This document shows positions 9,410 through 53,745 of a stretch of DNA of 64,000 nt, one piece after another (the stretch's first letter is position 1; the number at the start of each line of letters is the position of its first letter). The stretch covers positions 15,748,001 through 15,812,000 of the forward strand of contig OX597829.1 in NCBI GenBank assembly GCA_951406725.2. The letters are read 5' to 3'. The translations under genes and the position numbers were made by a program. The DNA is from Octopus vulgaris (taxonomy: Eukaryota). The notes beneath the pieces are model-generated. The model saw nothing but the letters and a program-made list of their open reading frames with translations. It was not told the DNA's origin and did no database searches.

Positions 9410-9527
9410 GCTTACAGCCATATCACGTTGAAAGCACCGGTTCTCGTCCGATCACCGAAGTTAAGCAACGTCAAGCCTAGATAGTACTCAGATGGGTAAC
9501 CGCTTGGGAAACCTAGGTGCTGTAAAC
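9410..9527 (+). rRNA. Isolated 5S rRNA gene variant or pseudogene
   Basis: Full-length 118-nt sequence GCTTACAGCCATATCACGTTGAAAGCACCGGTTCTCGTCCGATCACCGAAGTTAAGC...GGTGCTGTAAAC. Box A and intermediate element recognisable. No T4 terminator immediately downstream. Confidence 0.9.
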
Positions 9528-9544
9528 GACTTTCTGTCCTTGTA

Positions 9545-23389: not shown

Positions 23390-23589
23390 ATATTGTTGTA
23401 TTTAGGAATGGTCATTTTGCCAGTTTAGCCAATAAAAACACACGCACTATATATTTGGTGTTACTCTGACCGAAATAAGATTAAGTTTAATGTAAAAAAT
23501 AAACGCTGAAGCAAAGTAACAGCAAATATATAGTGCGTGTGTTTTTATTGGCTAAACTGGCAAATAACCATTCCAAAATACAACAATAT
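23390..23589. repeat. Foldback element (~75-bp arms) with one-sided extension, between (TA)n tracts
   Basis: Arms 23390-23465 and 23515-23589: atattgttgtattt.ggaatggt...gccagtttagccaataaaaacacacgcactatatatttg.tgttact. Confidence 0.95.
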
Positions 23590-23637
23590 ATATATATACG
23601 AAAGAAGGTTTGAAAATGCAATTTAAAAGATGTTTAT

Positions 23638-23682
23638 TTACTTTACCGGTTTCACTCTTTGGAAAAAGATTGTCAAAAGTAA
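23638..23682 (-). ncRNA. Minimal type I hammerhead motif with U3:A8 core
   Basis: Minus strand: TTACTT-TTGACAA-TCTTT-TTCC-AAAGA-GT-GAAAC-CG-GTA-AAGTAA. Confidence 0.7.
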
Positions 23683-24166
23683 CATGTAGAAGTTTGGTTG
23701 CGTTAATTATTGGTTGTTGCAAATTGCTACATTACATGTATACAGTCTTTGGTAACAGGGACATGTTAAGGACATAAAAAAGTTCAGCAAGTTCCTTAAA
23801 ATATTGGGCACAAAAGATTACTACATAAATAATCGTTCTCAAGGACATACTTAAGATAGTTTCCAGAAGGAATTGATATTGGTATTGTATCTGTATATTC
23901 AAACATGCACAGAATAATGGTTGACACAGAGTACTATAATCCATATAAATATACATTCTCTGGTGACATAAGTATGTTGAGAATATAAAAATTTAAGTCA
24001 CAGCGTATGGATTCAAGTAATCCGGTACTACTCATAAAAAAATTTAAAAAGTGTATCAATCAACAAAACATGGAGAATATATAGTACAATACAAGAGAAA
24101 ACAGTAAAGAGTGTATCAAGTCATAAATGACACAGAAATAGTTTGATGAAATTTTATTTAACAAAA

Positions 24167-24397
24167 GGTGACGAGCTGGTAGAATCGTTAACACGCCGGG
24201 CGAAACGCTTAGCGGTATTTCGTCTGCCGCTACGTTCTGAGTTCAAATTCCGCCGAGGTCGACTTTGCCTTTCATCCTTTCGGGGTCGATTAAATAAGTG
24301 CCAGTTACGCACTAGGGTCGATGTAATCGACTTAATCCCTTTGTCTGTCCTTGTTTGTCCCCTCTGTGTTTAGCCCCTTGTGGGTAGTAAAGAGATA
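24167..24397 (+). mobile_element. SINE family A, full length
   Basis: Family match. 17-bp TSD gaaattttatttaacaa at 24148-24164 and 24398-24414. Confidence 0.95.
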
Positions 24398-24729
24398 GAA
24401 ATTTTATTTAACAATGAGATAATTCTAATTCTTGTAACTTAAAAACGTGAGGACGAAGCTTAAATTCTGCATTATTTTGAAGAATATTTTGCATTTTGCA
24501 TTAATGCAAGCATGAAAGTCATTTATCCATTATTAAATATAATAATATAAATTATTTACATGTTTTTTAGTTACGAAACAACTTGTGAAATTCGAATTTT
24601 CTTATTGTTAAACAACATTTAATGAAATTATTTCTGTAGTTTGTGACCTTGTGTGTGTGCATGCGCGTGCGCACGTATGTGTATAACTATTACATTTGGA
24701 ACTTGAGAAAAGTATTGCGTACTTTAACT

Positions 24730-53445: not shown

Positions 53446-53745
53446 GGTACTGAGGAGCTATAACGATAGCGAAATATCGATATATATCATTCTCGATCAC
53501 TTTGGGAAAGTTGTCTTGCCTGTCTGGGATCTTCAGTGTTCTTCAAAATTCAGTGTTTTGTGGGAAGTTTTAGCTTTCTCAGGACGCTGTCCCACGGCAG
53601 ATTGGCGTATAAACAAAAGACATACGCTGTGTATGTGCAACCGATAATTTTTACAAAATTATTGATATACTTTACATGGAAAAATAAACAAAAATATATA
53701 AACGATGAAAGTTTAGAAAACAATAAAAATCTATTGTTCACCTTA

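What the first reader, a model, noticed from the sequence alone, without database searches (positions are those of the whole stretch)
23638..23682. Second non-canonical hammerhead, with a U3:A8 core and ACCGGU palindromic stem III
Seen on the minus strand: stem I TTACTT/AAGTAA, core TTGACAA, stem II TCTTT/AAAGA plus two extra nt, then GAAACCGGTA with a GUA site. U3:A8 again keeps the 3-8 pair. The sequence is unrelated to the G3:C8 motif, so independent families in this genome appear to use different 3:8 pairs (inference).
Basis: partly seen in the sequence, partly recalled or inferred. Interest (0 to 1): 0.75.

Follow-up and report, generated by a model that had tools for sequence, protein, structure and literature searches.

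The report
Swapped-core hammerhead in Penelope-like retrotransposon
This stretch is a likely self-cutting RNA motif (a hammerhead ribozyme with a U-A core pair, a variant already known from fluke retrotransposons) at the tail of a jumping gene with thousands of copies, and other jumping-gene families in the same genome carry C-G, G-C or A-U at that position, which would make the genome a natural test set for how freely the ribozyme core can change; cutting is untested.

Summary
The motif is real and is not a chance double decay. It lies in the 3' end of a 404-bp, 5'-truncated copy (23593-23996, minus strand) of an autonomous Penelope-like element with an RT plus C-terminal GIY-YIG ORF. The family has 2,420 pattern matches (control 0), and the first 100 listed are all U3:A8. 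U3:A8 in Penelope hammerheads is already published (S. mansoni), so the motif itself is a new member of a known kind. The wider inference holds and extends. A G3:C8 family has 5,590 matches, one family carries both C3:G8 and U3:A8 plus a few C·A copies, and another carries both G3:C8 and A3:U8. I found no paper reporting natural G3:C8 or A3:U8, but three key papers were not held. Cleavage is untested. It is likely slow and needs a dimer or the element's protein; copies do not pile up at the cut site. The scan earlier noted the 359-bp family and other Penelope hammerheads in this genome, but not this family.

The parts
23593..23996 (-). 5'-truncated copy of the 3' end (3' UTR and pseudo-LTR end) of a Penelope-like element, alpha subfamily; no ORF and no tail in this copy
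   Evidence: BLAST of the window against 30 loci: full-length matches end at 23593/23586 and 23996, about 89-98% identity; longer alpha copies carry the RT-EN ORF upstream
23677..23682 (-). Hammerhead stem I, 5' strand
   Evidence: sequence; 6 WC pairs with 23643-23638
23670..23676 (-). Core U3-U4-G5-A6-C7-A8-A9; U3 (23676) pairs with A8 (23671)
   Evidence: 100 of 100 listed family copies are U3:A8 (read by eye)
23654..23669 (-).
23644..23653 (-). G12-A13-A14-A15.1, palindromic stem III ACCGGU, U16.1, A17; predicted cut between 23644 and 23643
   Evidence: sequence; palindrome duplex -10.3 kcal/mol in cofold
23638..23643 (-). Stem I, 3' strand, overlapping an AATAAA at 23638-23633
23586..23598 (.). 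(TA)n run at the element's 3' end, the likely insertion target
   Evidence: 3' ends run into TA repeats in the family loci
36279..36328 (+).

Best explanation
This is the terminal type I hammerhead motif of a Neptune/Nematis-type Penelope-like retrotransposon, with U3:A8 in place of C3:G8; it likely cuts slowly after GUA, and likely only when two motifs pair through the ACCGGU palindrome or the element's protein assists. Shown: the motif, its position 50-90 nt from the element's 3' ends, the linked RT-GIY-YIG ORF, and strict 3:8 pairing across families whose stems differ completely. Inferred: tandem transcripts (pLTR-ORF-pLTR) bring two motifs together to form a shared 6-bp stem III; cutting trims the precursor; most genomic copies come from RNA that was uncut at the 3' motif, because they run through it. 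The window copy itself is a promoterless, ORF-less fragment with no second motif of this family in the window, so it is probably inert.
For: Family of 2,420 matches against control 0, 100 of 100 listed U3:A8; N17 is A in 19, U in 45, C in 36 and G in 0 of those 100 (by eye). Beta copies hold an intact 847-aa ORF with an RVT_1 hit, DKG, CX4CxxC and YIG; 2,603 of 7,990 scored candidates are homologues at E<=1e-30, many with PF01541. Five alpha loci with the window-type motif carry the same ORF end upstream on the same strand, 87-96% identical (L119, L123, L134, L137, L138). L098 shows motif, tail, ORF1, RT-EN in tandem. 14 of 30 alpha loci have the optional ~37-nt tail, and in 6 of 6 inverted-pair loci scored the tail is on one orientation only, as described for PLEs (PMC8557442 passages). 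A second PLE lineage with about 54% protein identity keeps the same core and palindrome with different, compensated stems. U3·G8 gives only 199 matches (control 32), the listed ones scattered single mutants. U3:A8 is reported active in vitro (PMC3088659 section 8). PLE minimal hammerheads cut weakly as dimers and not as monomers (PMC4209133), and the anole PLE hammerhead cuts only with protein (PMC11167929).
Against: No cleavage data. Stem II is weak (-0.2 to -1.1 kcal/mol), has two competing registers, and lacks the usual G10.1-C11.1 pair. Pairing U3 with A17 lowers the computed monomer energy by 1.6 kcal/mol, like the C3-G17 trap proposed in PMC3884650. The predicted MFE monomer and dimer folds are not the hammerhead fold. 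5' junctions do not pile up at the cut site: 10 of 34 junction rows lie at -2 to +1, against about 7 expected if uniform (by-eye tally, 14 of 48 rows dropped as small indels). The three subfamilies reflect few independent events, so within-family constancy of U3:A8 is mostly inheritance. In the anole element, cutting was not needed for insertion in vitro.
Confidence: 0.62

Rival explanations
1. The motif descends from a hammerhead, but this alpha subfamily no longer cuts. It is trapped by a U3-A17 pair and stem II slippage, and is carried along because it lies inside the 3' end that the RT copies, or serves as a protein-binding fold.
For: U3-A17 trap energy and two stem II registers; no pile-up of 5' ends at the cut site; cutting dispensable for insertion in the anole PLE; Naiads are reported to thrive without canonical hammerheads.
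Against: U3 with A17 is also the main form in the large AGTC/GGTC family, which has its own ORF and compensated stems; compensatory 3:8 switches in two other families imply selection on the catalytic geometry.
Confidence: 0.22
2. It cuts as a monomer chaperoned by the element's protein, and the palindrome only forms a 1-2 bp stem III; dimerisation is not needed.
For: The anole PLE hammerhead cuts only when protein is added; most copies are solitary or inverted rather than tandem.
Against: The stem III segment is a perfect palindrome in each family examined, with different sequences (ACCGGU, AAUAUU), which a monomer does not need; dimers cut and monomers did not in PMC4209133.
Confidence: 0.14
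3. Chance look-alike, or a double decay of a C3:G8 motif in this one copy.
For: AT-rich context; N7 is C, so G8 to A could arise by CpG decay.
Against: 0 of 150 shuffles give a hit; 0 of 100 listed copies are C3:G8; all 40 motif copies aligned keep U3 and A8 except one A3 copy.
Confidence: 0.02

Closest known systems
U3-A8 minimal hammerheads of Cercyon Penelope-like elements in Schistosoma mansoni (Cervera and de la Pena 2014, PMC4209133; parts 1-3 of 4 of the text, supplement file 2 part 2 and search passages read)
   Same: Type I motif in PLE terminal repeats, U3:A8 core, mostly single dispersed copies, some close on opposite strands; about 1,300 hits reported there.
   Different: Here stem III carries a 6-nt palindrome (like the shrimp and fly variants in that paper), stem II opens with U·U rather than G10.1-C11.1, N17 is A, and the ACCGGU class is dominated by U3:A8 (about 7,900 against 306 C3:G8).
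Natural U3-A8 core variants (Perreault et al. 2011, PMC3088659; section 8 and passages read)
   Same: Same compensatory change; the paper also notes a U10.1-U11.1 mismatch opening stem II as tolerated.
   Different: The section read gives several examples and does not tie them to PLEs; it names no G3-C8 or A3-U8 natural case.
PAc Poseidon element of the green anole (Frangieh et al. 2024, PMC11167929; parts 1-2 of 4 read)
   Same: Hammerhead in the pLTR, optional 30-40 bp tail from two RT start sites, AT-rich targets.
   Different: PAc has C3:G8 and belongs to the Penelope/Poseidon clade; G3:C8 was tested there only as an engineered partial rescue.
Neptune and Nematis clades of EN+ Penelope-like elements (Craig et al. 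2021, PMC8557442; passages read)
   Same: C-terminal GIY-YIG, CX2-5CxxC linker, DKG motif, (TA)n insertion, inverted 5' copies, tail at one end.
   Different: This family has an upstream ORF1 in another frame and a roughly 2-kb microsatellite-rich 3' UTR; which of the two clades it belongs to was not tested.

Membership tests
Type I hammerhead ribozyme | Core N3-U4-G5-A6-N7-N8-A9 and G12-A13-A14 with A15.1-U16.1 | tested here: met
Type I hammerhead ribozyme | Watson-Crick pair between positions 3 and 8 | tested here: met
   U3:A8 in 100 of 100 listed copies; U3·G8 only as scattered mutants
Type I hammerhead ribozyme | Stem I closing the motif and a stem II next to the core | tested here: met
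   6-bp stem I; 5-bp stem II after a U·U mismatch, weak and with a rival register
Type I hammerhead ribozyme | NUH cleavage triplet | tested here: met
   GUA here; A 19, U 45, C 36, G 0 of 100 listed (by eye)
Type I hammerhead ribozyme | Loop 1 - loop 2 tertiary contact of fast hammerheads | not tested
   not modelled; PMC4209133 describes loop 1 as poorly defined in PLE motifs
Type I hammerhead ribozyme | Site-specific self-cleavage | not testable with these tools
   indirect genomic test (5' junction pile-up) was inconclusive
PLE minimal (dimer-type) hammerhead | Short palindromic stem III | tested here: met
   ACCGGU
PLE minimal (dimer-type) hammerhead | G10.1-C11.1 after one unpaired base (consensus, not universal) | tested here: not met
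   U·U then C-G; a typical feature rather than a defining one
EN+ Penelope-like element | RT with C-terminal GIY-YIG endonuclease in the family | tested here: met
   Pfam hit only RVT_1 on the query itself, the EN call rests on motifs and on homologues' PF01541
EN+ Penelope-like element | Partial tandem pLTRs, inverted 5'-truncated copies, optional 30-40 bp tail at one end | tested here: met
Neptune or Nematis clade | CX2-5CxxC linker before the endonuclease, DKG motif | tested here: met
   positions 717 and 227 of the 847-aa ORF
Neptune or Nematis clade | Placement in an RT tree with named reference elements | not tested
   no named reference sequences were at hand
Naiad/Chlamys | Endonuclease N-terminal to RT | tested here: not met
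   YIG at 768, RT YLDD at 497
Non-LTR retrozyme | Short non-coding unit in head-to-tail tandem arrays | tested here: not met
   copies are dispersed or inverted and extend into an RT-EN ORF

The most novel reading that the evidence does not exclude
In this one genome, Penelope-type hammerheads have sampled and amplified all four Watson-Crick 3:8 pairs as working ribozymes, with switches caught inside single families (C-G and U-A with C·A intermediates; G-C and A-U). Natural G3:C8 and A3:U8 cores would then be active, and C3:G8-only descriptors would miss well over ten thousand hammerheads here.
Probability: 0.5. Interest if true: 0.65.

Novelty: new variant of a known kind. Interest (0 to 1): 0.47.

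Why it matters
The U3:A8 motif alone is ordinary for specialists. What matters is the setting. Paired natural alleles on the same scaffold (C-G, C·A, U-A; G-C, A-U) are ready-made tests of how the core pair and its neighbours tune cleavage. Their compensatory pattern is evidence that PLE hammerheads are under selection for the active geometry, although their role is still unclear and was dispensable in vitro in one PLE. It also shows that standard C3:G8 searches undercount these ribozymes: with the ACCGGU loop, U3:A8 outnumbers C3:G8 about 25 to 1 here. Canonical motifs with other loops were not counted, so no genome-wide ratio is claimed.

Tried and rejected
Rfam scan of the window: no hammerhead among the 150 of 393 rows shown. 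Non-autonomous element idea: the five longest copies first fetched looked non-coding, but other alpha copies run into the ORF, so it was rejected. The plus-strand reading frame over the element is broken by stops and was dropped. Expression: no RNA holder listed; only contigs could be laid, so ends and strand could not be read. C3-mismatch control: 1,116 matches (control 117), but most listed rows are one family without a clear stem II, so it is not a clean control. Purine-3/pyrimidine-8 count: 554 matches against a control of 973, so not enriched overall; only the family seen in the listing was followed up. The stem II comparison used loci picked by a pattern that fixed part of the preferred register, so it was repeated with an unbiased pattern. 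Cut-site pile-up test: not significant. The short endonuclease tree (12 rows, 131 columns, unrooted) cannot show whether the two U3:A8 lineages share an origin. Papers not held and not seen: Lunse et al. (PMC5785218), Przybilski and Hammann 2007 (PMC1986816), Nelson and Uhlenbeck 2008 (PMC2151028). Supplement file 1 of PMC4209133 was not searchable; supplements of the other papers were not opened. Any of these may already report natural G3:C8 or A3:U8.

Full report
Observation. The minus strand at 23682-23638 reads as described: a 6-bp stem I, core TTGACAA, a 16-nt hairpin region, GAAA, the palindrome ACCGGT, A17 at 23644, then AATAAA. A descriptor allowing any Watson-Crick 3:8 pair finds this site and the G3:C8 site at 36286 in the window, and nothing in 150 of 150 dinucleotide shuffles.

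The host element. The window lies in a 2.8-Gb genome that I take to be animal. A search with 23600-23760 gave 1,480 candidates, of which 40 were scored, yielding 49 matches at 97-100% identity. In the 30 loci fetched, the shared stretch is 23593-23996; 5' ends vary, 3' ends run into (TA)n, and ten loci have an adjacent inverted copy. 14 of 30 main copies carry an optional tail of about 37 nt, and in the 6 inverted-pair loci that the script scored the tail was on one orientation only. Passages of PMC8557442 describe these features for Penelope-like elements. A pattern search showed three subfamilies: alpha (the window type, GUA), beta (GUU) and gamma (GUC) (2,170 matches, control 0). Seven of ten beta regions fetched held long ORF pieces, one an intact 847-aa frame with an RVT_1 hit and DKG, YLDD, CX4CxxC and YIG motifs in that order. 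Its homologues carry RT and often GIY-YIG domains. Alpha is autonomous too: of 30 loci found with the alpha upstream region, 12 had tblastn hits, and five have the ORF end on the same strand upstream of a window-type motif. The window copy is therefore a 404-bp 5'-truncated end of a Neptune/Nematis-type element; the clade was not resolved by a tree.

Is U3:A8 the family state? Yes. With positions 3 and 8 free, 99 of the first 100 listed matches were U3:A8 and one G3·A8. With a pattern anchored only on the flanks and invariant core, all of the first 100 of 2,420 were U3:A8 (both read by eye). Contigs from runs labelled as three other organisms also cover the motif; among the 40 variant rows shown none falls on 23676 or 23671, but 35 rows were not shown.

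Stem II. In gamma the G at 23657 is A, which repairs the U·G of the second register and breaks the C-G of the first; 35 of the 36 C17 copies listed lack that G (by eye). This is one evolutionary event, so the support is moderate. PMC3088659 section 8 notes that U10.1-U11.1 is a tolerated mismatch.

Do families use different pairs? Yes. With the ACCGGU loop: U3:A8 followed by a non-T gives 5,833 matches (control 59), to which most of the 2,170 add; C3:G8 gives 306 (control 38); U3·G8 gives 199 (control 32), the listed ones scattered mutants of the U3:A8 and C3:G8 families. The C3-mismatch control is swamped by one other repeat. The window's G3:C8 motif has 5,590 matches (control 0), 94 of the first 100 G3:C8 by eye, and no significant similarity to the alpha element. 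Two families show the switch on one scaffold. A 359-nt tandem family has C3:G8 in 42, U3:A8 in 52, C3·A8 in 6 and U3·G8 in 0 of the first 100 of 389 matches, with units 85-97% identical; CpG decay of G8 followed by C3 to U is a plausible route (inference). A PLE family has both A3:U8 and G3:C8; the overall count for that pattern was not above its control, and I chose the 18 loci from the listing, so their ratio is not a sample. Whether the two U3:A8 PLE lineages (about 54% protein identity) share one origin is open.

Mechanism. By analogy with PMC4209133 (monomers inactive, dimers weakly active), two motifs in a tandem transcript likely pair through ACCGGU to build stem III; the palindrome duplex computes to -10.3 kcal/mol. 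PMC11167929 adds that a PLE hammerhead needed the element's protein to cut and was not needed for insertion in vitro. Against fast cutting here: the predicted lowest-energy folds are not the active fold, and U3 can pair with A17 for a 1.6 kcal/mol gain, like the C3-G17 trap in PMC3884650 passages. Copies that contain the whole motif must come from RNA uncut or re-joined at that site (inference). This is not a clear signal.

Comparison with print. U3-A8 is known in nature (PMC3088659 section 8) and in PLE hammerheads of S. mansoni, about 1,300 hits (PMC4209133). The alignment rows of its Figure S3 that I saw show C3:G8, U3:A8 and one U3·G8, and no purine at position 3. Searches for natural G3:C8 or A3:U8 returned only engineered G3:C8 mutants in the papers I opened (PMC3884650, PMC11167929); the other hits were seen as listings only. 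Three relevant papers were not held. PMC6765202 and PMC7229834 were seen as passages and the 2026 retrozyme preprint as part 1 of 5. Earlier AI notes on this genome cover the 359-bp array and rewired Naiad motifs; none matched this sequence, and a word search returned one note on a phage.

Verdict. The motif is a known U3:A8 variant in a known setting. The genome-wide spread over all four 3:8 pairs, with switches inside families, is the part I could not find in print, and it awaits cleavage tests. Interest 0.47.

Noticed in passing
window 36279-36328 +; loci L106-L117: G3:C8 hammerhead motif in a short element with inverted copies and TA ends; 5,590 genome matches, control 0; no ORF hit in the 12 loci checked.
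   Followed up: partly
L148-L152, L061 (G000:C1:20002278 and others): 359-nt tandem family, retrozyme-like, with C3:G8 in 42, U3:A8 in 52, C3·A8 in 6 and U3·G8 in 0 of the first 100 of 389 matches (by eye); units from L149-L152 are 85-97% identical to the C3:G8 unit.
   Followed up: yes
L168-L185: PLE family with stem I AAAGCA/TGCTTT and both A3:U8 (10 loci) and G3:C8 (7 loci) plus one A·C, among 18 loci that I picked from the listing; several carry an RT-EN ORF end upstream.
   Followed up: yes
L036-L065: Larger U3:A8 family with stem II AGTC/GACT or GGTC/GACC and GUA, tied to a PLE ORF about 54% identical to beta; further small U3:A8 families in the same listing.
   Followed up: partly
L156-L158 (G000:C1:447308 and others): A repeat making up most of the first 100 of 1,116 matches has C3 with U8, the GAAA-CCGGUC words and no clear stem II; it may be unrelated to hammerheads or differently wired.
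   Followed up: no
L159-L160: C3:G8 family with a long, irregular stem II region and the ACCGGU loop.
   Followed up: no
window 53446-53495 +: Canonical C3:G8 hammerhead-like motif with a longer palindromic stem III.
   Followed up: no
window 23390-23589: Imperfect inverted repeat (53-nt arms, 96% complementary) directly next to the element's 3' end; possibly another inverted retroelement remnant or a MITE.
   Followed up: no
window 24148-24414: A dispersed repeat of about 230 nt between two identical 17-nt direct repeats that look like a target-site duplication.
   Followed up: no
window 9410-9528 +: 5S rRNA gene or pseudogene, 104 bits.
   Followed up: no
L098:4392-5795 +: ORF1 of about 435 aa from its first ATG, upstream of and overlapping the RT frame, with no Pfam hit; the junction suggests a frameshift.
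   Followed up: no
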